Shown one piece after another: positions 1,172 through 50,373 of a DNA stretch of 62,696 bases. Within the stretch, counting starts at the first letter, position 1; each line of letters begins with the position of its first letter. Source of the stretch: an uncultured Bacilli bacterium (GTDB lineage: Bacteria > Bacillota_I > Bacilli_A > RF39 > UBA660); assembly GCA_934153655.1 (NCBI GenBank), contig CAKPFH010000001.1, positions 1-62,696 of the forward strand. The letters run 5' to 3'. The notes beneath the pieces were generated by a model. That model had not been told where the DNA came from. It saw only the letters and a list, made by a program, of their open reading frames with translations, and did not search any database. The position numbers and the translations under genes are program-made.

Positions 1172-1199
1172 TATAAAACTACTTTCTAAAAGAAAGTAG
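1172..1199 (-). terminator. Intrinsic terminator downstream of the 660-aa surface protein gene
   Basis: Perfect 9-bp stem (ctactttct/agaaagtag, 1179-1187 and 1191-1199) with a 3-nt loop, followed on the minus strand by UUUUAU. Confidence 0.55.
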
Positions 1200-1207
1200 C
1201 AAAGAGT

Positions 1208-3190
1208 TTAATATTTTAAAGCTATTGTAAATGGATTACTTTTAGTTCCAGCTCCACCTGTTATAACGATATTTGATTTTAGATTAATAGATGGGCGAGC
1301 AGCATGGCTATTAGACGGATAGCTGTAGTTGCCGTAACCGCCGCTGATAACGTACCAAACATAAGAAGGGCTAACAGGTGGTGTTATTAACCAAATAGTA
1401 CTTGAACTATTATAACCGTTTCCTTGTTGACTTGCAAACATTTCTCCATATCTTGGTAATCCTACTAAACCTGTCCATATAGTTGTTGTTTTAATACAAG
1501 TTTTTGTTGTTTCATTTGTATTATTTGTATTACATAAAGAATTTTTATAACTTATTCCCCTAGATACTTGCTTTATATAATATGTTCCTTTGTCTAACAT
1601 ATTTTTTGATGCTAAACTATTATACCAAGTATTGTTCAAATAATAATCCCAGTAATCGTCACTTGTACCATTTCCATAAGTTGTACTTGTACTAAATTGT
1701 TTAGTTAATTTTGTTGTTCCATCTTTTATATAATCATTTTTATTTAATTTAACTTTTCCATCTTCAATTGATACTATTCTATATAACTCATTTGTTGAAA
1801 TATCTCCATCTTCATCAAACACTACATACTCACCTATTGTTCTGGTATTTAATAATGTAGTATTTATAGTTGGTTGTTCCTTATCTCCTGATATTGTATA
1901 TGGATCATCTTTCGTTCCTGATCCACCCGAAAGTTGGATATCAGATTTTAGATTAATAGACGGGCGAGCAGCATAGCTATTAGACGGAGTGTAGCTGTAG
2001 TTGCCGTTACCGATGTAGTAAACGCTCCAAACAGTAGAAGAGCTATATGGATTTAATAACCACCACCAATATCCTATATTTAAATAACCAGAGCCATAAC
2101 TTGTATTTTTATAACTTAAATAATATTCATAACTGTTCAAAAGTCCTACAGGAGTATTCTTACCAATTGTCGAATTATTTATTAAAGTTGTTTCAGGTAA
2201 TTTAGTGCTTATTGCACTTGTACTACTTGTATTAGAATTTGTTATATTCCAAGTACTATTTTCTACTATTATATTTTGATAATTATATAAAGTATCTAAG
2301 AAATCTTCGTTTAACCATTGATACATGTACGAACCAGTATAAGTTGTGTCATCTTTTTTAGATATATCATAAAAATTTATATCATTATCTTGATTATAAG
2401 AAATAGTTGTAATTGGATCATCTGTTATCATTTTCATTGTTCCATCTGGATTTATGGCTGTTATTCTCCATAGTTTACCGGAATACCAAACATAGTTAAA
2501 GTTTATACAATCTTTTGTTCCTGATACATAAGTTATTCCATCTTCTTCCAAATAAGTTTTACATGTGTCTGTTTGTTTTTCCTTTAAATCATTTATAAAT
2601 ATATGAGATAATTCTTTGTTAGTATCATTATAAGCATAAATATTTACATTAAACTTAAATGTTTGAGATACACTATTTTGTTCATAATCTTTATCAATCC
2701 AAGCATATAGTCTATATTTATTAGTTTTAGTTCCTGGATTATTACCAATATAAATAACTTTACCTATTTGTTTATCTGCTTGATAAGTAGTATTTTCTAA
2801 ACTATTATATATTTTAGGACTTACTACTTGATTATTATTTTCATCTGTTAAAAAAACTTTAATATAATTACTATCTAAAGTATTAGTAGTATCACCTGTT
2901 AAATATAATTCATAGGAAATTGCTTTATCTGGATTGTTTATAGTACTTGAAACTGTAAAATCTATATATGATAATTTATCTAGATTTTGTAAAGCAAATT
3001 CATCACTTATGGGGTAAGCATTTACCATTTTAATAGAATTAGTTCCACTTATAAATTCGGCTTTTATGATATCACTTGTTAAAGTAAATGCTTGAACACT
3101 TTTAGAATATGTAAAAAATGCATATGCTGATCCTAATAGTATTATTATTAAAAATATTATTCCAAATACTAAAGCTTTTTTATTTTTCAT
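1208..3190 (-). CDS. Signal-anchored surface protein with two repeat domains, each ending ...AARPSINLKS..GG.GTK..P(Y/F)TI
   Basis: 660-aa ORF with AAGAGG upstream of the ATG. It has a hydrophobic N-terminus (MKNKKALVFGIIFLIIILLGSAYA). The two paralogous domain ends each carry a GC-rich patch (see findings). The same domain type occurs in the partial ORF at the right window edge. Confidence 0.75.
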   Translation of the reverse strand: MKNKKALVFGIIFLIIILLGSAYAFFTYSKSVQAFTLTSDIIKAEFISGTNSIKMVNAYPISDEFALQNLDKLSYIDFTVSSTINNPDKAISYELYLTGDTTNTLDSNYIKVFLTDENNNQVVSPKIYNSLENTTYQADKQIGKVIYIGNNPGTKTNKYRLYAWIDKDYEQNSVSQTFKFNVNIYAYNDTNKELSHIFINDLKEKQTDTCKTYLEEDGITYVSGTKDCINFNYVWYSGKLWRITAINPDGTMKMITDDPITTISYNQDNDINFYDISKKDDTTYTGSYMYQWLNEDFLDTLYNYQNIIVENSTWNITNSNTSSTSAISTKLPETTLINNSTIGKNTPVGLLNSYEYYLSYKNTSYGSGYLNIGYWWWLLNPYSSSTVWSVYYIGNGNYSYTPSNSYAARPSINLKSDIQLSGGSGTKDDPYTISGDKEQPTINTTLLNTRTIGEYVVFDEDGDISTNELYRIVSIEDGKVKLNKNDYIKDGTTKLTKQFSTSTTYGNGTSDDYWDYYLNNTWYNSLASKNMLDKGTYYIKQVSRGISYKNSLCNTNNTNETTKTCIKTTTIWTGLVGLPRYGEMFASQQGNGYNSSSTIWLITPPVSPSYVWYVISGGYGNYSYPSNSHAARPSINLKSNIVITGGAGTKSNPFTIALKY

Positions 3191-3995: not shown

Positions 3996-4892
3996 TCAAA
4001 CTTTATTTAAATTTTTCTTATATTTTTGTACTAATACTACAATTTTTCGAAGATAAACCAAATAATTATTAATATTATAACAATCTTTATAAGTATTTCT
4101 AGTAAATTCTATCTTTTTTAAATTAGCAAGTTTTATTAAAAATAATAAGTATTCATCTTCATCTATTTTATATTCTTTTTCATATTCTCTTAAAAATTCT
4201 TCTAAATCTAAATCATAGTAATTATCTTGATATAACTTTATAATATCATTTATAGGCATATCTTGTTTAGATTTATCCCAACTAATTAAATATTTATTAT
4301 TATTTTCAATTAAATGACTAGTATCTAAGTTATTATGAATTAAACTATATTTGATACTTTTTTTATTCTTAAGTAAATCATACCAGATATTAATTTTTTC
4401 TTTAGAAAAATCTAATAAATAATAAATTACATCCATATTAGAAACTAATAAATATTCACTTGGAGACATAAATACTTTAGTATCTATATAATTATTTAAA
4501 TCTTCATAATAACTTCTTAAATAATCAATATTTTTTACAATACTTTCATACATTTCTTTTAATTCATCTAAATCTATTTCTCTTGTAAAAGAAGTAGTTC
4601 GATGTAATATTCCACTTAAATGGATTAAATCACTTACTTTTTGTTCTCTTGGTATATCAAAAGAATCAATATATTCTACTAATTCTCCTTTAGAATTACT
4701 ACTTATACATCTAGGAAAATAATTAAATCCTCTTGTTTTTAAATATTCATAGATATCATAGTTATTAGTATTTTCTTTATAAACATATTTACCTTTATTA
4801 GTATCTAAAATAATTACTCTATTAAGTTTTTTTAAACCTTTTAATTTAATATTATTATCACATAAAACTTTTTTTAAATTATTCATCAACAC
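3996..4892 (-). CDS. ysxE: CotS/YsxE-family spore coat kinase-like protein
   Basis: 298 aa with an aminoglycoside-phosphotransferase-like motif (LIHNNLDTSHLI...ISWDKS). It lies immediately downstream of, and overlaps, a SpoVID-like gene, which reproduces the Bacillus subtilis spoVID-ysxE arrangement. Confidence 0.6.
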   Translation of the reverse strand: MLMNNLKKVLCDNNIKLKGLKKLNRVIILDTNKGKYVYKENTNNYDIYEYLKTRGFNYFPRCISSNSKGELVEYIDSFDIPREQKVSDLIHLSGILHRTTSFTREIDLDELKEMYESIVKNIDYLRSYYEDLNNYIDTKVFMSPSEYLLVSNMDVIYYLLDFSKEKINIWYDLLKNKKSIKYSLIHNNLDTSHLIENNNKYLISWDKSKQDMPINDIIKLYQDNYYDLDLEEFLREYEKEYKIDEDEYLLFLIKLANLKKIEFTRNTYKDCYNINNYLVYLRKIVVLVQKYKKNLNKV

Positions 4893-5550
4893 TTGGTATT
4901 ATTATTTTAGAACCAACTTTTAAATTATCTAAATCATTATACATTGCAAGTATTTCTTTATTAATATTATATTTTTCATAAATATATTCTAAAGTATCAT
5001 CTTCTTTCATAGTATAAACTCGGTAAATTGAATATTCTAAAGTATCATCAGGAGTAAATAATTCTTTTTCTATTTCTTTAGTATTATTAACATTTATATT
5101 ATTATTAATATTAGTATCATTTTCATTTTTACTTGAAATAGCATCTATATTATCATTTATATCATTATCTAACATTAAGTATTCTTTATCAACTCGGTTA
5201 TCTACTTTAATTTCTTCTATTTCATCTTCTTTAATATCTAAATCATCTAACATTAAACTTATATTTACTCTTAGTTTTTCTTCATTTATAATTTCATATG
5301 AGAAATCATCTATACTTACTTGACAATTAGTAGTATCATATTTAGTATCAATAGTTACAAATGATGGAATATTATATTTAAATTCTTCTTCTAGATCTCC
5401 TCCTATCATTTTATAAGTACCACTTATAATAAATTCTCCTGTTATTAAGTTCTTATCTAATTTTAAAGTATTATCAAGGGCAATTGAAGTTATTTCTGAA
5501 ATACCATTTTTAAATACTAATTCTTTGGTAAAAGGTACAATTTTTTTCAT
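4879..5550 (-). CDS. spoVID: SpoVID-like sporulation protein with a C-terminal LysM domain
   Basis: The N-terminal region resembles the SpoVID N-domain layout, the middle is low-complexity and N/D-rich, and the C-terminus is LysM-like (YRVYTMKEDDTLEYIYEKYNINKEILAMYNDLDNLKVGSKIIIP). It is syntenic with the ysxE-like gene. Confidence 0.6.
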   Translation of the reverse strand: MKKIVPFTKELVFKNGISEITSIALDNTLKLDKNLITGEFIISGTYKMIGGDLEEEFKYNIPSFVTIDTKYDTTNCQVSIDDFSYEIINEEKLRVNISLMLDDLDIKEDEIEEIKVDNRVDKEYLMLDNDINDNIDAISSKNENDTNINNNINVNNTKEIEKELFTPDDTLEYSIYRVYTMKEDDTLEYIYEKYNINKEILAMYNDLDNLKVGSKIIIPSVDE

Positions 5551-6839: not shown

Positions 6840-7469
6840 TTAATTATCAGAAGAAAATATTTTACAATTAATATAAGTTACATAATTATAAGTATCATAA
6901 TTTTTAGAAACTACAACATATGATTCATCTAAAGAACAACCATATTCTTTTTCATGAAAAATAGTAAGTTTTTTATTTAAATATTTTTCAATATCATTAA
7001 CTGTTAAAGTAGTATCAGTAAATGTTTCCGAAATATAATTTTTTTCTATTACTTCTTTAGCACTTTCTTGTAACAATCTTGTCATCTTTGCATCTAAATT
7101 AACATTATCAACCATTTTAATATTAGAATTATAATCTTTATAATAATAAGACTTAGGTATTTCTTTAAAATTAGAATCTTGATTATATTCATAAGTTTTA
7201 GTTTCATTAACACCTAAATTATCTATTTCAACTATAGTAGTCATAATTACTTCTTTTTTAGTATTTTCAAAGAATAAAACTATTTTTTTATTTTTAAGAG
7301 TTTTACCTGAGATATTGGTATAATCAATAGTTAAAGAGTTATCAGTTGTAACTAGATTAGAAAGTTTAATTTCTAATCTAGTCTTACTAATTAAAGGTAT
7401 TAAAATTAAGATAATTCCTAAAATAAATAATATTATTGCTATTATTGTTAATATTTTTTTATTTTTCAT
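6840..7469 (-). CDS. N-terminally membrane-anchored hypothetical protein (last gene of the pilin-like cluster)
   Basis: The start was refined to the ATG at 7469 (MKNKKILTIIAIILFILGIILILIPL), which is preceded by AGGAGGGG. The longer track ORF overlaps the upstream gene. Confidence 0.65.
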   Translation of the reverse strand: MKNKKILTIIAIILFILGIILILIPLISKTRLEIKLSNLVTTDNSLTIDYTNISGKTLKNKKIVLFFENTKKEVIMTTIVEIDNLGVNETKTYEYNQDSNFKEIPKSYYYKDYNSNIKMVDNVNLDAKMTRLLQESAKEVIEKNYISETFTDTTLTVNDIEKYLNKKLTIFHEKEYGCSLDESYVVVSKNYDTYNYVTYINCKIFSSDN

Positions 7470-7477: not shown

Positions 7478-10400
7478 CTATGTATGACAACAAGTTTTGT
7501 AAGTCTTGCAAGCAAATGATGTACATTTATAGATAGTCATATCAGCAACATATGCTGTATTAGCGCCTCCTCGCCAGTTAGTATAAGTAACTTTGATAAA
7601 GGCTCCAACTCCTCCGGAATAAGTACAATAATTTTTATATGCCCCTATTGCACTTGCTGATTGTATACCTGTTGAATGTTTTGACCAACTAGTACACCTA
7701 CTACAAGTACTTCCAGCAGTTGATGCTGAATAACGGACTGAGCAGCCACAGGAAGAAGAAGCATTTCTAACTTTAACTGATACTGTTTTAGATTGAGTTG
7801 ATGAACCTTCAGCATTTGCACAGGTTACATTTATAGTTTTAGAACCAGTTGAAGATAAGTTAATAGTTGATGTATAAGTGTTACCAGATGTAGATGGTGC
7901 ATAAGAAGTTGAACCAATTTTAGCTGAATATGAAGTTATTGGTAAATCTGATCTACAAGTAACAGTTGCTGTTGCTCCTTTTATATAAGAACCACTACAA
8001 GTTGATGAGTCACCATTAACGGAAATTGTAATATCAGGGGCTGTTGCTTCGGTATTTTTAACTAAAACATTTACAGTTTCTGTACAACCATATTTAGTTT
8101 TAAAAGTTACTGTTGCACTTTTGGTTTGATTAACTGGAACGCTTCCAGAAACAGCACTAATAACACCACCTTTTGTTGCTGTTACCAAAGATGAGTTACT
8201 ACTTATTGCATCCGTCATTGATCCACATTGATTAGCAATTGATAAATTTTGTTGCATCTTTCGTTTAGATGTATTAGATGTAATATTTAAAACAACATCA
8301 CTTGGAGTTATACTTAAAAGTTTATTATTGCTAGTACATGAATAAGTATAACCACAACTATCGGCATTTGGAGTTGATTTTAAAGTTAAATTACTTAAAG
8401 TACTATTATTTTTTCTATTACCAGCTGCCCAACCTATTTTAGAACCATATACAACGGGATACCAGGTATGACCATCTCTCCAAGTATACTTTGAACTTTG
8501 AATATAAACTAAATCACCTTTACCAATAGATGCTAATTGAGGATAATCAGTTCCTGGTCCAGATCTTAATTTTAAATTATTGCCCACATTTCCAACAGCA
8601 GTTGCATATTTGTCTTGCCATACTAAGAATAAAGTCTTATCATTTTCAAGATATATTTGATCCCCAAAACAAAATTCTACATTGTTGCCACTTTGATTTG
8701 ATGATAAACCAAGTAATTGATATCCGTGATATTTATCTCCCCCATTATTTCTACATACTTTACCATTAGCATAAGTTGGAATATTAAACATTGCCCCATC
8801 AGTATTATATATAGTTTTAGTTTCAGTTTTACTTGTTAAATTATCAGTTGTTACAGTTGTTGAACTATTAGTATTATATTTTAAAGTAACATTTTTGGAA
8901 GTAATTGCAAATAAATCAATATCATCATGAAGAGTTATTTTTTGTCCTTGCGAATAAGTTGCTGTATGACTACTTGAATTTTCAGACCAACCAATTATTG
9001 TCCAACCAGATCTTGTAATTGTTGGTAAAGTAATACTACATTCATCAGGTAATTCATCTCCATTATAAGCATATCCTGCTGTACAACTAAGTTTATTAGA
9101 TGATGTAGAAGTTGCTCCATTTAAGTTGAAAGTTGCATAATAAGTATTTTGCGAAATACTTCTTGTAATAGCATAATAGCTTGGTAATTCAGCATCACCA
9201 GTTGGTTTATAAATAGTTACACTTTGATTTGCTGAATAATTAGCACTTGTTAATGAATCTCCATCATCACTATAACCAAGAGCTGTAAAGCCACTCTTTG
9301 GTGTAATAGTTGGAAGTGTTATGTTACAAGATGAACCATTAGTTGAATTACAACATTCTTTAGTATCAGTTGTCTTACTTCCTATTTTACTTGCTCCATT
9401 TATATAAATATTAGCACATACTTCAACACTATTTATTACTAAAGTTCCCTTTTGATAAGTTGGATTATAGTTAATGTTACCTGATCCATTATTAATACTA
9501 ATATTACTTGGAGTAATTGTTCCAGTGGTTGTTACATTTGAAGTTGAAGGTGTTAAAGTAATGCTTGTTGCTGTATCTCCACTTACTAAATTACTAACTG
9601 TTATATAACCTACTCCTGTTGCTATACTACTACCATAAGTAATGGTTTGATTATTAGCTTTAACTGTAATACTTCGTTTATTAATAGTAAAGTTTTTAGT
9701 TGTACTACTTTTATAGTTACCTTTACCTGTTATAGTAACTGTTGCAGTTCCTGCATTTATATTATTAGAATAACTTAAAGTATAATCTGTATTTAAAGTT
9801 AAAGTTTTAGACCCATCCTTAATAGTTACATTTGGTTTCTTTTCAGTTTTATCATAAGTATAAGAAGTATTATCTAAACTAATTGTTAAAGAACCAATGG
9901 TTTTAGAAATTATACTAAAGTTTGTACTACCACTAAAAGTTAAATTATAATTATTTGCTAAGAAAGTTCCATTATTAGCTAAAGCAAGGGTTCCTTTATT
10001 AATTGGATATGAACCAATATTTTCTCCTGCTGTTCTTTGAAGAGTTCCTGTGAACTTAGGAGTTTCCCCTGATATATTTCCGGAATAATTATAAGTTAAA
10101 GTAGGATCTGATGCTCCATATATTTTACTTTGATTACTTTTAGCTGTTACAGTTAAAACTTTCTTGTTAATTGAACAACTTAAATATTTAGTTGTTGTAT
10201 TATCAGAAAAAGCATAGTTTGAATTAGCAACATACATTACCATATAAGCTTTAGCATCCTTACCTTCATTATTTTTAATGGTTACATTATTTCCACCTTT
10301 AGCTAAAACTTGAGTTGCTCCGTTATAAGTTAGACTGTTACAAGTTCCAAGAGTTGCTGTTGCTAAACGATTTATTACTAAAGTTCCCTTTTGATAAGTT

Positions 10401-12514
10401 GGATTATAGTTAATGTTACCTGATCCATTATTAATACTAATATTACTTGGAGTAATTGTTCCAGTGGTTGTTACATTTGAAGTTGAAGGTGTTAAAGTAA
10501 TGCTTGTTGCTGTATCTCCACTTACTAAATTACTAACTGTTATATAACCTACTCCTGTTGCTATACTACTACCATAAGTAATGGTTTGATTATTAGCTTT
10601 AACTGTAATACTTCGTTTATTAATAGTAAAGTTTTTAGTTGTACTACTTTTATAGTTACCTTTACCTGTTATAGTAACTGTTGCAGTTCCTGCATTTATA
10701 TTATTAGAATAACTTAAAGTATAATCTGTATTTAAAGTTAAAGTTTTAGACCCATCCTTAATAGTTACATTTGGTTTCTTTTCAGTTTTATCATAAGTAT
10801 AAGAAGTATTATCTAAACTAATTGTTAAAGAACCAATGGTTTTAGAAATTATACTAAAGTTTGTACTACCACTAAAAGTTAAATTATAATTATTTGCTAA
10901 GAAAGTTCCATTATTAGCTAAAGCAAGGGTTCCTTTATTAATTGGATATGAACCAATATTTTCTCCTGCTGTTCTTTGAAGAGTTCCTGTGAACTTAGGA
11001 GTTTCCCCTGATATATTTCCGGAATAATTATAAGTTAAAGTAGGATCTGATGCTCCATATATTTTACTTTGATTACTTTTAGCTGTTACAGTTAAAACTT
11101 TCTTGTTAATTGAACAACTTAAATATTTAGTTGTTGTATTATCAGAAAAAGCATAATTGGAATTAGCAACATACATTACCATATAAGCTTTAGCATCCTT
11201 ACCTTCATTATTTTTAATAGTTACATTATTTCCACCTTTTGCAAGAACTTGGGTTGCTCCATTATAAGTTAAACTGTTACAAATTCCAAGAGTTGCTGTT
11301 GTTTGTCTATTAATTGTACAAGTAAATTTTACATCTTCTGTACTATTATCATTCCATTTATAATTATCATTTAATCTAGCAGATACTTCATAACTACCTG
11401 CATTTGTTCCTTTATTATTAATAAATGTATAACCAGTTCCTGCACTTTTTGTTAATACTTGTTCCACTCCATTATAAGTTAAACTATTACAATAAGTACT
11501 ATCTGGTTTATTAACCTTATTGTATACTTCAAATACAACTTTTCTTGTACTAGTATTACCTGCAAAGTCCTCTATTTCTATAATTAAATTAGTTAAGCCA
11601 AGACTTAGAGTTTTATTTATTTCAAAACTTGTATTAGTACTTTCAATATTAACATATTTCTTGGTATCTCCTTTTTCAAAGGAATATCTAATACTTTTAA
11701 CACCACTTTCTAAGTCTTTTATATCATTTACTTTTACATTTACATCAACACTACTACTAGTTATTTCTTTAGATACTTTATCTTGAACAACACCATTATT
11801 TTCTAAAATAATAAAATCAGGATTGTTTCTATCTACTTTTATATTAATATATTCTGTTTTAGTTTCTTGATTATTAGTTATACCATAGTATTTATAATTA
11901 CCACTTTCTAAAACATTAACACTACAAGTTCTAAGACCACTATCATTCATATTACAACTATAAGTTTTATCATCACTTTTAATTTCAACTTTAGATACAT
12001 CATTTAAAGTAGTAAAAGTTAATTTTACATATTTATTTACCCATTCCCCTTCTCGATAAATAGTTCCTGTATCATTTTTAGTAGGTACCATCTTTAAAGA
12101 ATAATCAACTTCTCCACTACATTCTCTTGAGGTAGTTTTATAATTATCTTGACTACAAATAAGACATACATAATAATTAGTTTTATCATAACTATTTTTA
12201 TAAGCTGCTAAATAACTGGTTTCTAAATCACATGTATTTCCTCTTTTATCTAAAACATTTGTTGTATACTTTAAGTCAATTACATCTTTTAATGATACTT
12301 TTTTTACATCTCCATACATCTGAGGTCTATCACTTGTATATGCAAAATACTCTCCACCTGTTACTAACAAAGATTCTTCTAAGCTTTTATAATAAGTAGT
12401 TCTTATATGTTTACTTATTCCAACATAAGCAGCACTAACAATACCAAGTATTATTGCTAATACGGCTATAGTTGATAATAATTCTACTAAAGTAAATCCT
12501 TTTTTATTTTTCAT
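7478..12514 (-). CDS. Giant (1678 aa) prepilin-type N-terminal cleavage/methylation domain protein; modular pilin-like adhesin
   Basis: The N-terminus is MKNKKG|FTLVELLSTIAVLAIILGIV (class III signal peptide: Gly-1, Phe+1, Glu+5). It carries MBG-like (KIYGASDPTLTYNYSG...NYNLTF) and ...TYDKTEKKPNVTIKDG..LTLNTDYTLSYSNNINAGTATVTITGKGNY repeats, and an SH3b-like segment (LKLRSGPGTDYPQLASIGKGDLVYI...WYPVVYGSKIGWAAG). The last 93 aa contain 9 Cys. Confidence 0.85.
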   Translation of the reverse strand: MKNKKGFTLVELLSTIAVLAIILGIVSAAYVGISKHIRTTYYKSLEESLLVTGGEYFAYTSDRPQMYGDVKKVSLKDVIDLKYTTNVLDKRGNTCDLETSYLAAYKNSYDKTNYYVCLICSQDNYKTTSRECSGEVDYSLKMVPTKNDTGTIYREGEWVNKYVKLTFTTLNDVSKVEIKSDDKTYSCNMNDSGLRTCSVNVLESGNYKYYGITNNQETKTEYINIKVDRNNPDFIILENNGVVQDKVSKEITSSSVDVNVKVNDIKDLESGVKSIRYSFEKGDTKKYVNIESTNTSFEINKTLSLGLTNLIIEIEDFAGNTSTRKVVFEVYNKVNKPDSTYCNSLTYNGVEQVLTKSAGTGYTFINNKGTNAGSYEVSARLNDNYKWNDNSTEDVKFTCTINRQTTATLGICNSLTYNGATQVLAKGGNNVTIKNNEGKDAKAYMVMYVANSNYAFSDNTTTKYLSCSINKKVLTVTAKSNQSKIYGASDPTLTYNYSGNISGETPKFTGTLQRTAGENIGSYPINKGTLALANNGTFLANNYNLTFSGSTNFSIISKTIGSLTISLDNTSYTYDKTEKKPNVTIKDGSKTLTLNTDYTLSYSNNINAGTATVTITGKGNYKSSTTKNFTINKRSITVKANNQTITYGSSIATGVGYITVSNLVSGDTATSITLTPSTSNVTTTGTITPSNISINNGSGNINYNPTYQKGTLVINRLATATLGTCNSLTYNGATQVLAKGGNNVTIKNNEGKDAKAYMVMYVANSNYAFSDNTTTKYLSCSINKKVLTVTAKSNQSKIYGASDPTLTYNYSGNISGETPKFTGTLQRTAGENIGSYPINKGTLALANNGTFLANNYNLTFSGSTNFSIISKTIGSLTISLDNTSYTYDKTEKKPNVTIKDGSKTLTLNTDYTLSYSNNINAGTATVTITGKGNYKSSTTKNFTINKRSITVKANNQTITYGSSIATGVGYITVSNLVSGDTATSITLTPSTSNVTTTGTITPSNISINNGSGNINYNPTYQKGTLVINSVEVCANIYINGASKIGSKTTDTKECCNSTNGSSCNITLPTITPKSGFTALGYSDDGDSLTSANYSANQSVTIYKPTGDAELPSYYAITRSISQNTYYATFNLNGATSTSSNKLSCTAGYAYNGDELPDECSITLPTITRSGWTIIGWSENSSSHTATYSQGQKITLHDDIDLFAITSKNVTLKYNTNSSTTVTTDNLTSKTETKTIYNTDGAMFNIPTYANGKVCRNNGGDKYHGYQLLGLSSNQSGNNVEFCFGDQIYLENDKTLFLVWQDKYATAVGNVGNNLKLRSGPGTDYPQLASIGKGDLVYIQSSKYTWRDGHTWYPVVYGSKIGWAAGNRKNNSTLSNLTLKSTPNADSCGYTYSCTSNNKLLSITPSDVVLNITSNTSKRKMQQNLSIANQCGSMTDAISSNSSLVTATKGGVISAVSGSVPVNQTKSATVTFKTKYGCTETVNVLVKNTEATAPDITISVNGDSSTCSGSYIKGATATVTCRSDLPITSYSAKIGSTSYAPSTSGNTYTSTINLSSTGSKTINVTCANAEGSSTQSKTVSVKVRNASSSCGCSVRYSASTAGSTCSRCTSWSKHSTGIQSASAIGAYKNYCTYSGGVGAFIKVTYTNWRGGANTAYVADMTIYKCTSFACKTYKTCCHT
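9432..11309. repeat. Tandem duplication, 2 x 939 bp (313 codons), inside the giant pilin gene
   Basis: Copy 9432-10370 and copy 10371-11309 are identical by eye over the first ~785 bp. They then diverge at scattered positions over the last ~150 bp. Confidence 0.95.
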
Positions 12515-12522: not shown

Positions 12523-12882
12523 CTATACTTCTTTACAACTACTTGGAATATTTATATTTAAATCTTTATAAAGTTCTTTTGAACTTTGATCTTTGCAACT
12601 TAAATAGGCTTCCATTGTATTTATTTTAACATAACCATTACAAGTTATCTTATTATTTATTTTAGTAATACCAAGTTCACTTAAACAAATATATTCTTTT
12701 TTAGTATAATTAGGCATAGTCTTAACATATTTTATCATCATATCTTTATAAGTATTAAATTGTTTATTTTGATTAGAAGTATAAATATTTTTAACACTTG
12801 GAAATATTAATAACATTATTAAAGACATTAAAACAATAACAGCAAGTAATTCAACTAAAGTAAAGCCTTTATTTTTTATCAT
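12523..12882 (-). CDS. Type IV pilin/pseudopilin-like protein
   Basis: MIKNKG|FTLVELLAVIVLMSLIMLLIF prepilin motif. The start was refined to the ATG at 12882 with a GGTGA RBS; the track start at 12891 is a GTG inside the RBS. Confidence 0.8.
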   Translation of the reverse strand: MIKNKGFTLVELLAVIVLMSLIMLLIFPSVKNIYTSNQNKQFNTYKDMMIKYVKTMPNYTKKEYICLSELGITKINNKITCNGYVKINTMEAYLSCKDQSSKELYKDLNINIPSSCKEV

Positions 12883-12957
12883 TCTTATCACCTTTTATTT
12901 TACTATTTTAGTATATCAAAAAAAGTAAAAAAAAAATAGATATTTTCATAATATTAT

Positions 12958-13566
12958 CTATTTTTCTTCTAATTTTACTCTTTTAGAAAATTTACAACCA
13001 CAATAATCTTGTCTATATAAATTATATTCATGTGATAAAACTATACTTCTTTTATATCCTTCTTTTTTCTTAAAATCAGAGTATAAATAATTAACATGGT
13101 AAATGTTTTCTAACTCTGCTCCTATTTCATTTATTATTTTACTATTTTTTAAAGGACTAATAGTAAGAGTTGTTGTTACAAAGTCAAAGTTATGTTTTTT
13201 AGCATAGATAAAAGATTTTTCAAGTCTTAATCTATAACATTTAAAACAACGACTTCCTCCTTCTTTTTCATTTTCAAGTCCTGAAACTATATTTAAATAG
13301 TCTTGATTATTATAACCAAGGGAAACTACTTTAACTTGATTTTTAGTTTTAAAACAATTAACAAATTTTAATAATTCTTGAAGTCTTTTATTATATTCTT
13401 CAAGGGTATCAATATTGGGATTATAGAAAAGAATTGTTATATCAAAGTAATCACTTAAATATTCAATAACATAACTAGAACAAGGAGCACAACAGGCATG
13501 TAAAAGTAAAGTTTTTTTACTACTTAAATTTTTTAAAGTATTTTCTAAAACAATTTGATAATTCAT
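12958..13566 (-). CDS. queH: Epoxyqueuosine reductase QueH (DUF208)
   Basis: LLLHACCAPCSSY..., CFKCY and DYCGC cysteine motifs; 202 aa. Confidence 0.85.
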   Translation of the reverse strand: MNYQIVLENTLKNLSSKKTLLLHACCAPCSSYVIEYLSDYFDITILFYNPNIDTLEEYNKRLQELLKFVNCFKTKNQVKVVSLGYNNQDYLNIVSGLENEKEGGSRCFKCYRLRLEKSFIYAKKHNFDFVTTTLTISPLKNSKIINEIGAELENIYHVNYLYSDFKKKEGYKRSIVLSHEYNLYRQDYCGCKFSKRVKLEEK

Positions 13567-14285
13567 TAGATATCTAGATTATGATAAACACTTGATACAT
13601 CATCAATATCTTCTAAAGCTTCAATTAGACCCATTACTTTTTCTGTATCTTCTTCATTTAAAGCAATTTTATTTGAAGCAACATAAGTTACTTCACTTCT
13701 TAAAAAGTCTTTTATACCACTTTCTTCAAAAGCTGCTTTAACAGTTAAAAAGTTTTCTGGTTCTGTATAAATAGTATAGGTATCATCACAATCAATTACA
13801 TCTAAACTATCAGCTGTAATTGCAATATCCATAACTTCATCAAAGTTATCATTAGCTTCTATTTCAATTACTCCAAGTCTTTTAAATAGATAACTAACTG
13901 AACCATCTGTTCCTAAGTTTCCACCACGTTTAGTAAGAGTTGATCTAACAAGCATAGCTGTTCTATTTTTATTATCAGTTAAGCAATCAATCATAATTGC
14001 TATTCCATGAGGTGCATATCCTTCATATCTAATACTTTCAAAATTAACATCACTATTAGCTCCTACAGCTTTATCAATAGCCTTTTGAATATTATCTTTT
14101 GGCATATTGTTGCTTCTAGCTTTTTCAATAACCATTCTAAGACCAGGATTAGTATCTGGATCTCCATTAGTACCCTTTGCTGCTACTTGAATTTCTTTAG
14201 ATATTTTTTGAAATATTTTTCCCCTTTCAGCATCTATTAAACCTTTTTTACGATGAATTGTTGCCCATTTAGAATGTCCACTCAT
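13566..14285 (-). CDS. yebC: YebC/PmpR family DNA-binding transcriptional regulator
   Basis: MSGHSKWATIHRKKG... signature. The ATG at 14285 is preceded by AGGAGG, and the track start is a TTG within the RBS region. Confidence 0.93.
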   Translation of the reverse strand: MSGHSKWATIHRKKGLIDAERGKIFQKISKEIQVAAKGTNGDPDTNPGLRMVIEKARSNNMPKDNIQKAIDKAVGANSDVNFESIRYEGYAPHGIAIMIDCLTDNKNRTAMLVRSTLTKRGGNLGTDGSVSYLFKRLGVIEIEANDNFDEVMDIAITADSLDVIDCDDTYTIYTEPENFLTVKAAFEESGIKDFLRSEVTYVASNKIALNEEDTEKVMGLIEALEDIDDVSSVYHNLDI

Positions 14286-14334
14286 AAATCCTCCTTTCAA
14301 ACTTCTTTATTTTAACAAATTTTTTCGTATTAGT

Positions 14335-15564
14335 CTAGTTATTTTTTAACTCTTCTTCTATACGCATTAATTGATTATATTTACAAATTCTATCTGTTCT
14401 TGACATAGAACCAGTTTTAATTTGACCAAGATTCAAGCCAACGGCTAAATCAGCAATAGTAGTATCTTCAGTTTCTCCACTTCTATGAGAAATTACGGTT
14501 TTATAATTATTCTTTTTAGCAAGTTCAATTGTTTTTAAAGTTTCCGTGATTGTTCCTATTTGATTAACTTTTAATAAAATTGCATTTCCAGCATGGTTAT
14601 CAATTCCTTTTTGTAAATATTCGATATTAGTTACAAATAAATCATCACCTACTAATTGAATTTTATCTCCTAGTCTTTCAGTTACTAATCTAAATCCTTC
14701 CCAATCATTTTCGTCTACTGGATCTTCAATTGAAATAATTGGATAAATCTTAATTAATTCTTCATAGTAATCTATTAATTCTTTAGTTGTTAATTTCTTA
14801 TTTTCACCTTTTAAATAATAGATACCGTCTTCATATAATTCACTAGCAGCAACATCAATTGCCATATTAACATCAACTCCTGGAGTGTACCCGGCAAGTT
14901 TAATTGCTTCCATGATAAGTTCAAAACCTTCTTTATTAGTTTTTAAGTTAGGAGCAAACCCTCCTTCATCTCCAACACTAGTAACATAGCCTTTATCTTT
15001 TAAAACTTTCTTTAAATTATGAAATACTTCAGATCCTATTCTTACTCTTTCTTTTATAGTATCAGCAGTTGGAATAATCATATATTCTTGAAAATCTAAG
15101 TTGTTATCAGCATGAGCTCCTCCATTTATAATATTCATCATAGGACGTGGCATTATAGTACCAGACCCAACATATTTATAAAGAGGCATTTTTTTCTCAT
15201 TGGCAGCTGCTTTTAAACAAGCCATCGAAACACCCAAAATAGCATTAGCACCTAAATTAGATTTTGTTTTAGTTCCATCAAGTTCAATCATCATATTATC
15301 TATTTTTTCTTGATCAAAAACATCCATTCCAACAACTAAATTTTTAAGTTCATTATTAACATGACTAACAGCTTTTAAAACACCTTTTCCAAGATAACGA
15401 CTACCCCCATCACGAAGTTCTAAAGCTTCTCTTTCCCCAGTTGAGGCTCCACTAGGAACACAGGCTCTACCTATTACCCCACTTTCAAGAATTACATCAA
15501 CTTCAACTGTTGGATTTCCTCTTGAATCTAATATTTCTCTTCCTATTACATTTTTAATTTTCAT
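14335..15564 (-). CDS. eno: Enolase (phosphopyruvate hydratase)
   Basis: [18 protein letters not shown]..., [17 protein letters not shown] and [12 protein letters not shown] motifs. At 409 aa it is slightly shorter at the C-terminus than typical enolases. Confidence 0.97.
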
Positions 15565-19236: not shown

Positions 19237-19767
19237 CTATTTTTTTTCTAAGTAATCTTCATTAACACTTTTTTCAATGGCATCCATGGCATCTTTGGTA
19301 TCAACAATTTCTTCCCAATCATCCATGTTTTCATCAACTAATATTTTAACTTTAGTATCTCCTATTAATTCAATTCCAAGTTCACTATCAACTTGATAAT
19401 TAATTTTATTACCATCTATCTTAACATTCGTACAACTTGGATCTTTCAATGCCCTTACAATTACCGAAGCATCTGAATAATCTACTCCTTCTTTTTCACG
19501 AATATTAACATTTTCTTTATAATTAAATGTTTCCTTTACAACATCAGTTTTAGTATCATAGGCATATGAATACCATATATTTATATCATAACTACCGGTA
19601 ATTGTAATTATTGAACCTTCTTTATTACCTTTAAAATTATGATTAATGACCCAACAACCAAGTACATTAGTTGGATTTTCTAAAGTATTTACAAAATGAT
19701 TATGTGTAAATACTTTTTTACCTTTTCCTAAAACAGCTTTTGTAACAATCTCTCTATAATTAGACAT
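19237..19767 (-). CDS. cotE: Spore coat morphogenetic protein CotE
   Basis: Aligns by eye along its length with B. subtilis CotE (MSxYREIxTKAV..KG.K, LG.WxINH, YDINxWYSYA..TKTxVV, acidic C-terminus with DDWEE). Confidence 0.85.
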   Translation of the reverse strand: MSNYREIVTKAVLGKGKKVFTHNHFVNTLENPTNVLGCWVINHNFKGNKEGSIITITGSYDINIWYSYAYDTKTDVVKETFNYKENVNIREKEGVDYSDASVIVRALKDPSCTNVKIDGNKINYQVDSELGIELIGDTKVKILVDENMDDWEEIVDTKDAMDAIEKSVNEDYLEKK

Positions 19768-32693: not shown

Positions 32694-34814
<2,121 letters not shown>

Positions 34815-34822
<8 letters not shown>

Positions 34823-36110
34823 CTTTATTATCCTTTAAAAAATCAAATTTGATAATTATTTCTTCTTCACTAATAGGCGAATACTTTTTTTGAATTAATT
34901 GCTCTAATATCTTTTTTCCTCTAAATAATTTTAATTTAAGTTCATCACTCATTTCATCTGTATTAGCAAGTTCATAAACATCTCTTGTTTCAAGATAATT
35001 TAATAATAACCTTCTAACATTTGCTCCTAATTCTTTCATTGGTTTTGTTTGAACTGCTCCACCAAGTCTTGATACGGATAATCCATAGTTAATAGCAGGT
35101 TTCTCACCTTTTTGAAAATTTTTAGTTGATAAAACAATTTGTCCGTCTGTTATAGAAATAATATTTGTAGATATATAATCTGTTATATCACCACCTCTTG
35201 TTTCAACTATTGGAATTATTGAGATACTACCTCCATTTTTATGTTGACATCCTTTCTCTAAAAGTCTTGAATGTAAATAAAATATATCAGATGGATAAGC
35301 ATCTCTTCCTGGACTTTTTCCAGATATTAAACTGATTTCTCTGTATGCGTCTGCATGTCTTTTTAAGTCATCTATTACAACTAACACATCATTTCCACTT
35401 TCCATTAATTTCTTAGCAATTGATAGAGCATAATAAGGCGTAAGTACTAAAACAGGGGCTAAATCATCATTAAAAGCTGAAACTATAATTGTATATTCAA
35501 GAGCATTTCTTTTCATTAATTCATAATATATTTCTTTAACTTCTTTTTTAGTTTTACCTATTGCAACATAAATACAGAAAACACCTTTATCCTTTTGATT
35601 AACAATTGTATCCAAACAAATTTGAGTTTTTCCCGTTTTTTTATCGCCTATTACAAGTTGTCTTTGTCCCTTTCCTATTGGATATATTAAATCAATTCCA
35701 ACAATTCCTGTCAAAAGAGGTCTATTAACATTTGTTCTATCCATAATTGGAATATTATCTTCTTCAAAATGAAGTTGCATAATATTTTTATATCTCATAC
35801 CAGTTAATAAATCTGTTCCAAATATATTAGTAATTCTTCCTACACTATCTAAGGAAAATTCTCCCATAAATTCTTCATTTGTTTGATAAGCTATATCTCC
35901 TATTACAATTTCTTCTTTTTTTAATAAAATAGCAACTATAACACTATTTGCATTAATTTTTGTTACATATCCAAGTGCTTTATTAGAAATATTAATTTTT
36001 TCATAAAAAGAAACACTTTCTAATCCAACAATTTCAACAATAAATTCTTTAATATTTATTATTTTACCAACATCTATTATTTTACCAACATCTAATGCTT
36101 TTTCTTGCAT
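34815..36110 (-). CDS. atpA: F1-ATPase alpha-subunit homologue
   Basis: Contains GKGQRQLVIGDKKTGKTQICLDTIVNQ, YREISLISGKSPGRDAYPSDIFYLHSRLLE, GGSISIIPIVETRGGDITDYISTNIISITDGQI and GLSVSRLGG. The ATG at 36110 is preceded by AGGAGG. About 431 aa, C-terminally shorter than canonical alpha. Confidence 0.9.
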
Positions 36111-36118
36111 AAAACCTC

Positions 36119-36843: not shown

Positions 36844-36844
<1 letters not shown>
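36119..36844 (-). CDS. b/delta-like peripheral-stalk candidate (N-terminal TM plus a long charged helix)
   Basis: 241 aa with a TM (ILIIVAALLVLTILMFLFL) followed by a coiled-coil-like K/E-rich helix. It sits between the c-like and alpha genes, as atpF/atpH do, and its start overlaps the c-like stop (TAATG). Confidence 0.5.
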
Positions 36845-38459
<1,615 letters not shown>

Positions 38460-48145: not shown

Positions 48146-48631
48146 TTATTGAGTCTTAGCAAATACGTGAGCTGAATTTAAACTACCTTCAGCAACAGCA
48201 GTAGTTGTTCCTGATGCATTAGATATATAATGGTCTCCATTAGCATCTTTTAAATAAATTGCATATGTAAATGTTTGGCAATTATCAGATGCAGTAACTG
48301 TTACTTTAGAACCAGCTTTATCATAAGCAGTTCCCCATGGAGTTTTATCTGTATCAGCACCTTTAGTTTTAATATTACTTAATGCTATATCAAATGTTCC
48401 AGCACAAGTTGTTACATAAGTACCAGATCCACCTAACATTGCTTCAACCATATCTGCTTCTACTAAAGATTTAGCACCTTCAACGAATTGCTTAGCTGAA
48501 GCAACAAAAGCATTTTTTCTTGTTGAATCAAGTACGTTAGTAATAGCAACAGCAGCAATACCCATAACAATTGCAAGAACAACGATAACAGCAAGTAATT
48601 CAACTAAAGTAAAACCTTTTTTATTTTTCAT
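48146..48631 (-). CDS. Type IV pilin (major-pilin-like)
   Basis: MKNKKG|FTLVELLAVIVVLAIVMGIAAVAITNVL. The ATG at 48631 is preceded by GGAGGA. The gene is noticeably GC-richer than its neighbours. Its stop codon lies inside the IS terminal repeat. Confidence 0.85.
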   Translation of the reverse strand: MKNKKGFTLVELLAVIVVLAIVMGIAAVAITNVLDSTRKNAFVASAKQFVEGAKSLVEADMVEAMLGGSGTYVTTCAGTFDIALSNIKTKGADTDKTPWGTAYDKAGSKVTVTASDNCQTFTYAIYLKDANGDHYISNASGTTTAVAEGSLNSAHVFAKTQ

Positions 48632-48731
48632 TTTTCCTCCTATCATTTATAACTAAATCTTATCACAAGAAAAAATTATAGTCAAGTCATCTTTACTATT
48701 TTTTTAAAATATGCTATAATCAAAGTGTTTT

Positions 48732-50182: not shown

Positions 50183-50373
50183 TCCAATATTCCTCCCTAT
50201 TCTCTCTATCATAATTATATGATAGCATGAATTAATTATATATTCTAGTACCTTTTTAAATATTTTGTCAACACCTCTAACTACATTTTTGTTTTAAAAA
50301 AAACTAATCCAACAAATTATTAATATTTTTTTACTTTCATATGATATAATTTAACCATAGTAAAGGAGTTTAT

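What the first reader, a model, noticed from the sequence alone, without database searches (positions are those of the whole stretch)
7478..12514. A 1678-aa protein with a bona fide prepilin signal: an exceptionally large modular type IV pilin or pseudopilin
Seen in the sequence: the N-terminus MKNKKG|FTLVELLSTIAVLAIILGIV has the class III signal peptide hallmarks (Gly-1, Phe+1, Glu+5), identical in style to the two small pilins at 12523-12882 and 48146-48631. The remainder is about 1650 aa of MBG-like and Ig-like repeats and an SH3b-like domain, ending in a Cys-rich segment (9 Cys in the last 93 aa). It is flanked by a 119-aa pilin-like gene upstream and a membrane-anchored protein downstream. 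No PilB/PilC/PilD/PilM-O homologues are in the window.

Established knowledge: modular pilins that graft functional domains onto a pilin moiety are known, for example in Streptococcus sanguinis, but those are far smaller.

Inference: this is a tip- or shaft-displayed adhesin delivered by a type IV filament, or a pilin-anchored surface fibre.
Basis: partly seen in the sequence, partly recalled or inferred. Interest (0 to 1): 0.65.

Follow-up and report, generated by a model that had tools for sequence, protein, structure and literature searches.

The report
Giant modular type IV pilin adhesin
A 1678-residue surface protein of an uncultured gut bacterium starts with a genuine type IV pilin module and continues as a long fibre of about 18 small domains. 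It belongs to a large, unstudied family in which this pilin module carries adhesin-like passengers of up to about 3000 residues.

Summary
ORF 7478-12514 (-) encodes 1678 aa with a class III (prepilin) signal that scores above the Pfam and NCBIfam cut-offs and is invariant across the family. The model shows a 51-residue alpha1 helix, a small Cys-containing head and two Ig domains. Then come nine MBG/Ig-like stalk domains, three Listeria-Bacteroides-like repeats, SH3b, two Ig domains and a Cys-rich end domain.

A near-identical 313-aa tandem duplication is present in some strains (1678 aa) and absent in others (1365 aa).

The same pilin module occurs in at least 1,222 representative proteins. 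Among the best 150, lengths run from 99 to 3061 aa, with varied passengers. So the protein is large compared with published modular pilins (860 aa cited as the extreme) but not the largest in the databases.

No assembly genes are in the window. Close relatives carry a Tad-like locus in synteny and a stand-alone PilB/GspE-type ATPase. No platform protein of PilC type and no prepilin peptidase was found in any sequence I fetched.

Best reading: a modular minor pilin that displays a length-variable adhesive fibre from a type IV filament. This is a new member of a known kind, and processing and assembly are untested.

The parts
12523..12882 (-). Small (119-aa) type IV pilin gene, first gene of the three-gene operon. 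Its stop overlaps the ribosome-binding site AGGAGAG of the giant gene.
   Evidence: N_methyl 27.8 bits and TIGR02532. It is below the cut-off for every ComG and Gsp equivalog. Sequence of the junction. Orthologues are kept after YebC-QueH in relatives, even where the giant gene is absent.
7478..12514 (-). Giant modular pilin gene: 1678 aa, mature protein about 180 kDa.
12110..12514 (-). Pilin module (residues 1-135): leader MKNKKG, mature N-terminus FTLVE, alpha1 helix at residues 9-59, and a small beta head with four invariant Cys (C95, C117, C120, C132).
11522..12094 (-). Two Ig-like beta-sandwich domains (residues 141-331), conserved with the pilin module across the family.
   Evidence: AF2 pLDDT above 90. 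Foldseek matches FN3, SiiE BIg and other Ig tandems. Weak Big_13 match.
9431..11497 (-). Variable stalk (residues 340-1028): nine MBG-like or Ig-like domains, of which four score as MBG_2.
9431..10300 (-). Copy 1 of a near-identical tandem duplication (period 939 nt, 313 aa, four domains). Protein residues 725-1028 are identical to 412-715.
   Evidence: The 1365-aa allele P0002 (99% identical) lacks one copy.
10370..11239 (-). Copy 2 of the tandem duplication.
8615..9430 (-). Three Listeria-Bacteroides-repeat-like units (residues about 1029-1300). This is where the conserved C-terminal 'head' region begins.
   Evidence: Flg_new 23.3 bits, below the cut-off of 27. The repeat pattern is visible in the sequence. 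The region is conserved in the family.
8420..8578 (-). SH3b domain (residues 1313-1365).
   Evidence: SH3_3 31.9 bits on the segment, cut-off 27. AF2 beta-barrel-like segment, pLDDT 63-83.
7772..8317 (-). Two further Ig-like domains (residues about 1400-1581).
   Evidence: AF2 pLDDT 85-95. Foldseek matches cadherin, RTX-adhesin and titin tandems.
7481..7762 (-). Cys-rich all-beta terminal domain (residues about 1585-1678, nine Cys) ending in the conserved motif YKTCCHT. No family match.
6840..7469 (-). 209-aa N-terminally anchored protein, third gene of the operon, found downstream of the giant pilin at all four loci where the downstream gene was examined. It has the same MKNKK leader but lacks G-1 and E+5.
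   Evidence: Homologues lie downstream of the giant gene in L001 (8e-76), L003 (2e-24) and L005. No Pfam or NCBIfam match. Similarity of its C-terminus to the pilin head is inconclusive.
48146..48646 (-). Second stand-alone pilin (161-166 aa, Ala/Gly/Thr-rich), a candidate major subunit, lying next to a split ISL3-like transposase.
   Evidence: N_methyl 37.4 bits, TIGR02532 31.1 bits. Its best match among the fetched loci (2e-17) is a 163-aa pilin that lies near ComEA/ComEC in L072.

Best explanation
The gene encodes a genuine class III signal-peptide protein, that is, a modular minor type IV pilin.

**Shown**
- It has a canonical prepilin leader, a hydrophobic alpha1N segment with Glu5, a helix of about 50 residues and a small Cys-containing head.
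- These are followed by about 18 beta-rich domains that end in SH3b, two Ig domains and a Cys-rich domain.
- The stalk length varies between strains through a near-identical 313-aa tandem duplication.
- The gene sits in a tight three-gene operon with a small pilin and a membrane-anchored protein.

**Inferred**
- After insertion into the membrane, a prepilin peptidase encoded elsewhere removes MKNKKG.
- A type IV filament machine encoded elsewhere then incorporates the pilin module. Relatives have a PilB/GspE-type ATPase and a Tad-like system.
- The most likely position is the priming, tip-located subunit, possibly paired with the small pilin as in Streptococcus sanguinis PilA-PilC.
- The fibre of about 180 kDa would then project from the filament and place its conserved C-terminal head on a ligand. 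That makes it a fibrillar adhesin whose anchor is a pilin.
- Recombination between the identical repeats lengthens or shortens the stalk.
For: **Signal and pilin module**
- The signal scores above curated cut-offs in two libraries.
- K5, G6, F7, T8, L9 and E11 are invariant in 7 family members, as are four Cys of the head.
- G6, F7, T8 and E11 are at least 90% conserved in 46 divergent proteins with different passengers. An ordinary signal anchor would not need this conservation.
- AF2 gives helix 9-59 followed by four short strands.
- The family profile hits Geopilin, MshA, gonococcal and meningococcal PilE (profile positions 7-94 against mature residues 1-88) and S. sanguinis PilE1.
- The same full-length module (about 130-140 aa) occurs as stand-alone pilins of 118-138 aa and at the head of proteins up to 3061 aa. 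Passengers include Flg_new, Big_13, MBG, DUF285, HYR, VWA and cadherin-like domains. This is the 'carrier plus grafted module' pattern of PMC8179133.

**Operon and architecture**
- The small pilin, the giant and the 209-aa gene are separated by 8 nt each, with a ribosome-binding site overlapping the upstream stop.
- In the family, the N-terminal roughly 405 aa and the C-terminal roughly 650-780 aa are conserved, while the middle varies.
- Alleles of 1678 and 1365 aa both occur.

**Machinery in relatives**
- A PilB/GspE-type ATPase with a tetracysteine motif scores 464 bits to TIGR02533. Matching contig lengths (113044, 51233) indicate it shares a contig with the orthologous giant pilin. In L028 it is divergent from a pilin gene.
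- A Tad-like locus lies in conserved synteny with YebC, QueH, the small pilin and the giant pilin.
- ComEA and ComEC lie next to a pilin in L072.

**Precedent.** In S. sanguinis the small minor pilin PilA stabilises the modular pilin PilC in a tip complex (PMC9934059).
Against: - No assembly gene is in the 62.7-kb window, which is a whole contig. The rest of this genome could not be read.
- In 1.38 Mb of fetched loci from the clade I found no PilC-type platform and no A24 prepilin peptidase. These loci were chosen around pilin or ATPase genes, so this is not a genome-wide test.
- The head of the pilin module is modelled at only pLDDT 60-74. Foldseek on the 340-aa model returned only Ig-type matches, so the pilin fold of the head was not confirmed by structure comparison.
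- No pilin of this size has been shown experimentally to be assembled.
- The small pilin is not an obligate partner. It is absent next to the giant gene in L001 and L005, and present without the giant in L093.
- Adhesion is inferred from domain types. No ligand-binding domain was identified, and the terminal domain has no match.
Confidence: 0.6

Rival explanations
1. Pilin-anchored fibre without a long pilus. The class III signal and pilin module serve mainly as a membrane anchor and export device. The protein stays as a single subunit, held in the membrane by alpha1N or capping a very short stub or pseudopilus. The cell is then decorated with individual 180-kDa fibres rather than tipped pili. 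In this clade the pilin module would be a general anchor for fibrillar adhesins.
For: - The module heads many hundreds of different large proteins: 98 of the best 150 representatives exceed 500 aa.
- Several such genes occur per MAG, usually far from any machinery.
- A membrane-anchored partner is found downstream of the giant at every locus examined.
- No LPXTG-type signal is seen on the window's large proteins.
- Surveys of fibrillar adhesins found no known anchor for about half of the candidates, and their list of anchors tested did not include the prepilin signal (PMC8286594).
- Archaeal precedent: Sulfolobus sugar-binding proteins carry class III signals and depend on a dedicated assembly system (PMC3047682).
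Against: Conserved Glu5 and a conserved pilin head point to subunit-subunit packing in a filament. Stand-alone small pilins with the same module exist, and so do a candidate major pilin and a PilB-type ATPase in the clade. Nothing here separates 'tip of a long pilus' from 'cap of a stub'.
Confidence: 0.25
2. The assembly machine is the Tad-like system rather than a PilB/PilC or Com system. In this clade a Tad-like locus that has no Flp pilin gene of its own assembles N_methyl-type pilins, including the giant one.
For: - In four relatives the order is DUF6273, TadE, a 165-aa gene, TadZ, CpaF, TadB, TadC, (YkuD), YebC, QueH, small N_methyl pilin, (giant pilin).
- No Flp-like gene and no TadV is visible in those loci.
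- In L061 an independent Tad-like locus is followed directly by a 756-aa KKGFTLVELL modular pilin.
Against: - The linkage runs through housekeeping genes (YebC, QueH), so it may be inherited synteny only.
- In the window the Tad segment is precisely absent between the same flanks, while the pilin operon is intact.
- L001, L003 and L005 carry the giant gene at other sites with no Tad genes among those within 10 kb.
- The G|FTLVE-L signal is the classical type IVa/Com type, not the Flp G|xxxxEY type (PMC3244431).
- L061 does have an Flp-like 89-aa gene.
Confidence: 0.15
3. Ordinary signal anchor or chance resemblance. The N-terminus only anchors or exports a conventional giant surface protein and has nothing to do with type IV filaments.
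For: There is no machinery in the window and no experimental data. The Pfam N_methyl model is short (27 positions).
Against: - The motif is invariant, or nearly so, across a very divergent family.
- Homology extends through alpha1 and the head to bona fide small pilins and to PilE and MshA.
- The two neighbouring genes share the leader, and one of them is a small pilin.
Confidence: 0.05

Closest known systems
Modular minor pilins PilB (vWA module) and PilC (lectin module) of Streptococcus sanguinis type IV pili (PMC8179133, PMC9934059)
   Same: A monoderm host. A class III signal, then a small pilin module, then a non-pilus functional part grafted at the C-terminus. An adhesive role is predicted, and a small minor pilin is encoded alongside (PilA stabilises PilC).
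   Different: The S. sanguinis proteins are bimodular, lie inside a complete pil locus, and have been characterised experimentally. Here the passenger is about 18 domains (1540 aa) with a repeat stalk of variable length, the locus has no assembly genes, and nothing has been tested.
Survey of modular pilins in InterPro (more than 1,200 proteins, 264 architectures; most extreme case cited: 860 residues with 12 repeats, Candidatus Falkowbacteria; PMC8179133)
   Same: The same definition applies: an N-terminal IPR012902/PF07963 motif plus domains not specific to pili. Multi-domain cases are already noted there.
   Different: The window's protein is about twice that length. Its pilin-module family (at least 1,222 representatives at E <= 1e-10) reaches 3061 aa. 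MBG, Listeria-Bacteroides and SH3b passengers are not among the 15 most frequent architectures that the paper describes.
Minor pilins CofB and TcpB of type IVb pili and GspK of type II secretion (as discussed in PMC8179133)
   Same: Large minor pilins carrying extra beta-domains, located at the filament tip, where they prime assembly.
   Different: These come from diderm bacteria, carry one to two extra structural domains, and are encoded in the machinery operon. CofB trimerises.
Fibrillar adhesins and Periscope proteins of Gram-positive bacteria (PMC8286594, PMC9704523)
   Same: A single-chain rod of tandem beta-domains with a distal head. Highly identical tandem repeats whose copy number differs between strains (1365 versus 1678 aa).
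   Different: Known anchors are C-terminal LPXTG/sortase, SLH, LysM and similar. Here the anchor is an N-terminal pilin module and the head is C-terminal. The repeat unit is a four-domain, 313-aa block seen in only one or two copies.
Sulfolobus bindosome substrates (sugar-binding proteins with class III signal peptides; PMC3047682)
   Same: Large functional surface proteins that use a prepilin-type signal and a dedicated type IV-like assembly system.
   Different: These are archaeal, lack a pilin head domain, and are solute-binding proteins rather than fibres.
PilY1 / PilC tip adhesins of type IVa pili
   Same: A large adhesin (about 1000 aa or more) presented at the pilus tip.
   Different: PilY1 is not a pilin. 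It docks on a minor-pilin complex through a beta-propeller. Here the adhesin and the pilin are one polypeptide.

Membership tests
Type IV pilin (class III signal-peptide protein) | Short hydrophilic leader ending in Gly or Ala | tested here: met
   The leader is MKNKKG|F. N_methyl and TIGR02532 score above their cut-offs. Gly6 is invariant in the family.
Type IV pilin (class III signal-peptide protein) | A tract of about 21 hydrophobic residues after the cleavage site, with Glu at +5 | tested here: met
   The mature sequence begins FTLVELLSTIAVLAIILGIVSAA. E11 of the precursor is invariant or at least 90% conserved.
Type IV pilin (class III signal-peptide protein) | An alpha1 helix of about 50 residues carrying a globular head ('lollipop' shape) | tested here: inconclusive
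   AF2 gives helix 9-59, then strands 71-74, 101-106, 114-119 and 134-136. Head pLDDT is only 60-74, and Foldseek on the model returned only Ig matches. The sequence profile aligns to PilE through mature residue 88.
Type IV pilin (class III signal-peptide protein) | Cleavage, and usually N-methylation, by an A24 prepilin peptidase encoded in the genome | not testable with these tools
   There is no A24 peptidase in the window. Other contigs of this genome could not be retrieved. None was seen in the fetched loci of relatives.
Type IV pilin (class III signal-peptide protein) | Polymerisation by a type IV filament machine (hexameric ATPase plus platform protein) | tested here: inconclusive
   The window has none. 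Relatives have a PilB/GspE-type ATPase and CpaF, TadB, TadC and TadZ. No PilC-type platform was found.
Modular pilin (sensu Raynaud et al. 2021) | An N-terminal IPR012902/PF07963 motif plus at least one domain not specific to pilus biology | tested here: met
   N_methyl plus MBG_2 (four matches) plus SH3_3, and Ig-like domains in the model.
Fibrillar adhesin / Periscope protein | A stalk of tandem foldable domains with highly identical repeats whose number varies between strains | tested here: met
   A 939-nt unit is duplicated with 786 consecutive identical bases. Residues 412-715 equal 725-1028. Alleles of 1678 and 1365 aa exist. Only one or two copies were seen.
Fibrillar adhesin / Periscope protein | A recognised cell-wall or membrane anchor (LPXTG, SLH, LysM, choline-binding and others) | tested here: not met
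   There is no such Pfam domain and no LPXTG-like C-terminus. The anchor is the pilin module.
Fibrillar adhesin / Periscope protein | An identifiable adhesive (ligand-binding) domain distal to the anchor | tested here: inconclusive
   SH3b is present. The terminal Cys-rich domain has no Pfam match and no specific structural match.
Flp/Tad (type IVc) pilin | A pilin of about 60 aa with the G|xxxxEY Flp motif, processed by TadV | tested here: not met
   The signal is G|FTLVEL, the protein is 1678 aa, and it matches N_methyl rather than Flp or TadE models. Definition taken from PMC3244431.
Competence (Com) pilus pilins ComGC-GG | A score above the NCBIfam equivalog cut-offs | tested here: not met
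   The small pilins reach at most 29.7 bits against cut-offs of 49-80. The giant has no ComG hit.

The most novel reading that the evidence does not exclude
In this clade of uncultured low-GC, spore-forming gut Bacilli, the type IV pilin module may have become the general surface anchor and export handle for fibrillar adhesins, carrying hundreds of different passengers of up to about 3000 aa. These giant pilins may be deployed by an unconventional route. One option is a single-subunit cap on a minimal stub built by an orphan PilB-type ATPase. Another is a Tad-like machine with no Flp pilin gene seen in the locus, helped by the membrane protein encoded downstream. Either would differ from minor subunits of a classical pilus.
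Probability: 0.2. Interest if true: 0.75.

Novelty: new member of a known kind. Interest (0 to 1): 0.5.

Why it matters
Modular pilins explain how simple type IV filaments gain new functions. The cases studied so far carry one extra module.

This protein and its family show that the same carrier principle extends to whole fibrillar adhesins of 1100-3000 residues with stalks of variable length, in abundant but uncultured gut Bacilli. That poses concrete questions:
- How is a 180-kDa, 18-domain passenger exported and threaded through the wall of a monoderm cell?
- Does it sit at a tip or on a stub?
- Which machine handles it?

It also offers a candidate for the 'missing anchor' of the many predicted fibrillar adhesins that have no recognised anchor.

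Tried and rejected
**Finding the rest of this genome (failed)**
- An exact look-up of the giant protein and of IleRS returned only other metagenome scaffolds; the window's own record is not shown.
- The single genome-contig scan did not return the window's species. The best hit was 53% identical.
- I tried to find this species' CpaF or PilB orthologue by identity level, sample overlap and contig-length matching. That gave candidates (L103-L105: a Tad locus followed by GreA) but no sample overlap.

**Structure searches (uninformative)**
- Foldseek on the 340-aa N-terminal model was dominated by the Ig tandem and did not test the pilin head.
- Foldseek on the C-terminal model gave only generic cadherin, titin and RTX-adhesin tandems, with no function for the Cys-rich domain.

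**Ideas dropped or left open**
- The 209-aa partner as a degenerate pilin. BLASTP gives weak local matches (E = 5e-4 and 1e-3) and hhalign a probability of 35%. The L005 homologue lacks that C-terminal part. Left as inconclusive.
- A search for PilC or PilD with seeds from a distant Firmicute (L035) found hits only in unrelated phyla.
- The promoter and terminator scan was no better than shuffled sequence for promoters.
- A literature search for prepilin plus MBG domain found nothing.
- The giant-gene paper on Omnitrophota concerns giant proteins located next to type II secretion-like loci; pilin fusions do not come up in the passages I searched.
Full report
**1. The observation**

The minus-strand ORF 7478..12514 is intact and encodes 1678 aa. 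The N-terminus MKNKKG|FTLVELLSTIAVLAIILGIV matches Pfam N_methyl (29.1 bits, cut-off 21.2). It also matches NCBIfam TIGR02532 IV_pilin_GFxxxE (24.5 bits, cut-off 16.3).

The rest of the protein carries four MBG_2 matches (121.6 bits). It also has an SH3_3 domain at residues 1313-1365, which scores 31.9 bits on the isolated segment against a cut-off of 27. Nine Cys lie in the last 93 residues.

Three genes form a tight operon: a 119-aa pilin (12523..12882), the giant gene, and a 209-aa N-terminally anchored protein (6840..7469). The gaps are 8 nt each, and the ribosome-binding site of the giant gene overlaps the small pilin's stop codon. A third prepilin-type gene lies at 48146..48646. A regex scan finds no other prepilin-type signal in the window.

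The gene is not an assembly artefact. The identical protein, or 1678-1680-aa variants, lie on more than 10 independent contigs.

**2. Anatomy**

I modelled residues 1-340 with AlphaFold on a family alignment.
- Residues 9-59 form one helix, the length expected for pilin alpha1.
- Four short strands follow (71-136, pLDDT 60-74). They contain four Cys (C95, C117, C120, C132) that are invariant in the family.
- Two Ig-like sandwiches follow (141-331, pLDDT above 90). They resemble FN3 and SiiE BIg tandems.

Residues 340-1028 hold nine MBG-like or Ig-like domains. Residues 412-715 and 725-1028 are identical. At the DNA level the 939-nt unit is duplicated with 786 consecutive identical bases. A 99%-identical allele of 1365 aa lacks exactly one unit. 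The stalk therefore varies in length between strains, as in Periscope proteins (PMC9704523).

Residues from about 1029 to 1678 form a conserved 'head' region:
- three Listeria-Bacteroides-like repeats, with Flg_new at 23 bits, below the cut-off;
- the SH3b domain;
- two Ig-like domains;
- an all-beta, Cys-rich terminal domain modelled at pLDDT about 90, with no family match and no specific structural match. It ends in the conserved motif YKTCCHT.

The mature protein is about 180 kDa.

**3. Is the N-terminus a real pilin module?**

- The motif KKGFTL(V/I)E is invariant in about 30 family members.
- G6, F7, T8 and E11 are at least 90% conserved in 46 divergent proteins that share only this module.
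- A profile of the N-terminal 340 aa, searched against PDB sequences, returns 15 hits, and 14 of them are type IV pilins: Geopilin, MshA, gonococcal and meningococcal PilE (profile positions 7-94 aligned to mature residues 1-88), S. sanguinis PilE1, PilA and PpdD.
- A profile of residues 1-140, scored against 1.84 billion representative proteins, finds 7,596 proteins at E <= 1e-3, 1,222 at E <= 1e-10 and 37 at E <= 1e-30. Matches usually cover the whole module.
- Of the best 150, 27 are 200 aa or shorter (stand-alone pilins), 98 exceed 500 aa, 33 exceed 1000 aa and 4 are at least 1678 aa (1997, 2509, 2751, 3061). 127 of the 150 show the G-F-T-L-x-E pattern within their first 60 residues.
- Passengers differ widely among them: Flg_new, Big_13, MBG, DUF285, HYR, VWA, cadherin-like and others.

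This is the 'carrier pilin plus grafted module' design described by Raynaud et al. They counted more than 1,200 modular pilins and cited an 860-residue protein as the most extreme multi-domain case (PMC8179133). The window's protein is therefore large relative to the literature but not unique in size.

**4. Family and genomic context**

The close family (1100-1680 aa, all from metagenome assemblies) keeps the N-terminal roughly 405 aa and the C-terminal roughly 650-780 aa and varies in the middle. Some genomes carry two paralogues in tandem. The membrane-anchored downstream protein is present at all four loci where the downstream gene was examined. The small upstream pilin does not always accompany it.

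The hosts are uncultured low-GC Bacilli from gut samples, including rabbit, goat and Hadza (human) metagenomes. The window itself is 24% G+C. It carries MurD, CotE and a SpoVID-like LysM protein, so the organism is walled and probably forms spores.

**5. Machinery**

The window is a whole contig and holds no PilB, PilC, PilD or Tad gene. The rest of this genome could not be retrieved.

Relatives show a conserved gene order: DUF6273, TadE, a 165-aa gene, TadZ, CpaF, TadB, TadC, (YkuD), YebC, QueH, small N_methyl pilin, (giant pilin).

One relative, L093, is 91.5% identical in DNA to the window over YebC, QueH and the small pilin. In the window the Tad segment is missing exactly between the same two flanks, which are also rearranged. 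A sister lineage has the Tad locus next to GreA instead, but I could not link it to the window's species.

Relatives also have a stand-alone PilB/GspE-type ATPase:
- It has a tetracysteine motif and scores 464 bits to TIGR02533.
- Matching contig lengths indicate that it shares a contig with the orthologous giant pilin in the closest giant-bearing species.
- It is divergently transcribed from a pilin gene in L028.

ComEA and ComEC sit next to a 163-aa pilin in L072. No PilC-type platform and no A24 peptidase appeared in 1.38 Mb of fetched loci.

**6. Mechanism**

Shown:
- a canonical class III signal, an alpha1 helix and a conserved head, fused to a fibre of about 18 domains with a conserved distal region;
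- variation in stalk length between strains;
- an operon with a small pilin and a membrane protein;
- type IV filament ATPases in close relatives.

Inferred:
- cleavage after Gly6 by a prepilin peptidase encoded elsewhere;
- incorporation of the pilin module into a type IV filament, most likely as a priming tip subunit. A body position would need a flexible linker (PMC8179133);
- a possible partnership with the small pilin, as for PilA-PilC in S. sanguinis (PMC9934059);
- adhesion through the C-terminal head.

Rival readings:
- Display as a single pilin-anchored fibre or as a cap on a stub (confidence 0.25).
- Assembly by the Tad-like machine (0.15). This is compatible with the main reading.
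- A plain signal anchor (0.05).

**7. Comparison with known systems, and novelty**

The protein meets the sequence definition of a modular type IV pilin. It fails the definitions of Flp pilins and of the ComG equivalogs. It also looks like a fibrillar adhesin or Periscope protein, but with the polarity reversed and a pilin module in place of the usual anchors. A survey of such adhesins did not test for this kind of anchor and found none of the known ones for about half of its candidates (PMC8286594).

I file it as a new member of a known kind. It belongs to a large, uncharacterised subfamily that stretches the size range well beyond published examples.

**8. Verdict**

The finding is real and correctly read at the sequence level. 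Its size is notable but not exceptional in metagenomic data. Processing, assembly and function are untested. Interest: 0.5.

Noticed in passing
window 22643-43637 (- strand): An atypical F-type ATPase-like cluster. It holds a c subunit (36844-37089), an alpha-like gene (34815-36131), a gamma-like gene (34058-34822), a beta-like gene (32694-34049), and small and membrane ORFs with no Pfam match. Giant anchored proteins of 1722 aa (38469-43637), 451 aa and 2818 aa (22643-31099) flank it. From my own knowledge it recalls the F1-like X0 ATPase clusters of mycoplasmas, but here it sits in a walled, spore-forming Bacilli MAG.
   Followed up: partly
window 1189-2548 and 12601-14337; L093 2155-3506, 3507-8228 and 8229-9957: A relative that is 91.5% identical in DNA has a Tad-like locus (TadE to TadC) exactly between a DUF6273 gene and YebC. 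In the window both flanks are present but rearranged, and the Tad segment is missing, with breakpoints precisely at its two ends. A sister lineage (L103-L105) has the Tad locus next to GreA instead.
   Followed up: partly
window 1208-3190 and 62345-62620; L008 87-3145; L090 6426-8327; L093 1501-3486: Large DUF6273-type secreted proteins with an N-terminal '...GSAYAFFTYSK'-type signal, possibly of the SipW/TasA class (my own knowledge). They have paralogues at both ends of the contig. In relatives they sit directly upstream of the Tad-like locus.
   Followed up: no
L090 1125-2438; L097 10001-11344; L099 5494-6801; L028 5354-6703: A PilB/GspE-type ATPase of 435-449 aa lacks the long N-terminal domain of PilB-type ATPases. 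It is conserved across the clade as a stand-alone gene between glyA or fmt and the sporulation gene yunB, with no adjacent platform gene.
   Followed up: partly
L061 2823-12271: Another uncultured Bacilli MAG has a different Tad-like locus: two RcpC/SAF-like genes, an ATPase, TadB and TadC, an 89-aa Flp-like gene, a TadE-like gene and a ParA-like gene. It is followed directly by a 756-aa KKGFTLVELL modular pilin with repetitive Gly-rich motifs.
   Followed up: no
L052 2777-6823; L053 1509-5558; P0049, P0422, P0455, P0465: Many other very large N_methyl-type proteins occur in gut low-GC Bacilli and 'Tenericutes' MAGs. Examples are open reading frames of about 1350 codons and proteins of 2243-3061 aa. 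Several such genes occur per MAG.
   Followed up: partly
window 46756-48026: An ISL3-like transposase is split into two ORFs (83 aa and 340 aa). It lies immediately downstream of the 166-aa pilin gene, so that pilin may have been separated from its original neighbours.
   Followed up: no
window 7481-7501 (the last 7 codons of the giant gene): The extreme C-terminus YKTCCHT is conserved even in the most divergent family members (variants TCCHN, TCWHY, KCYHT). It could be a metal-binding or cross-linking motif, but its role is unknown.
   Followed up: no
window 49234-50212: A SocA/Panacea-domain antitoxin-like gene (49667-50212) sits with an unassigned 146-aa partner upstream of the 166-aa pilin.
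   Followed up: no
window 19237-19767 and 4879-5550: CotE and a SpoVID-like LysM protein are present in a 24% G+C genome, which points to a spore-forming lineage. Relatives carry SpoIIGA and YunB.
   Followed up: no
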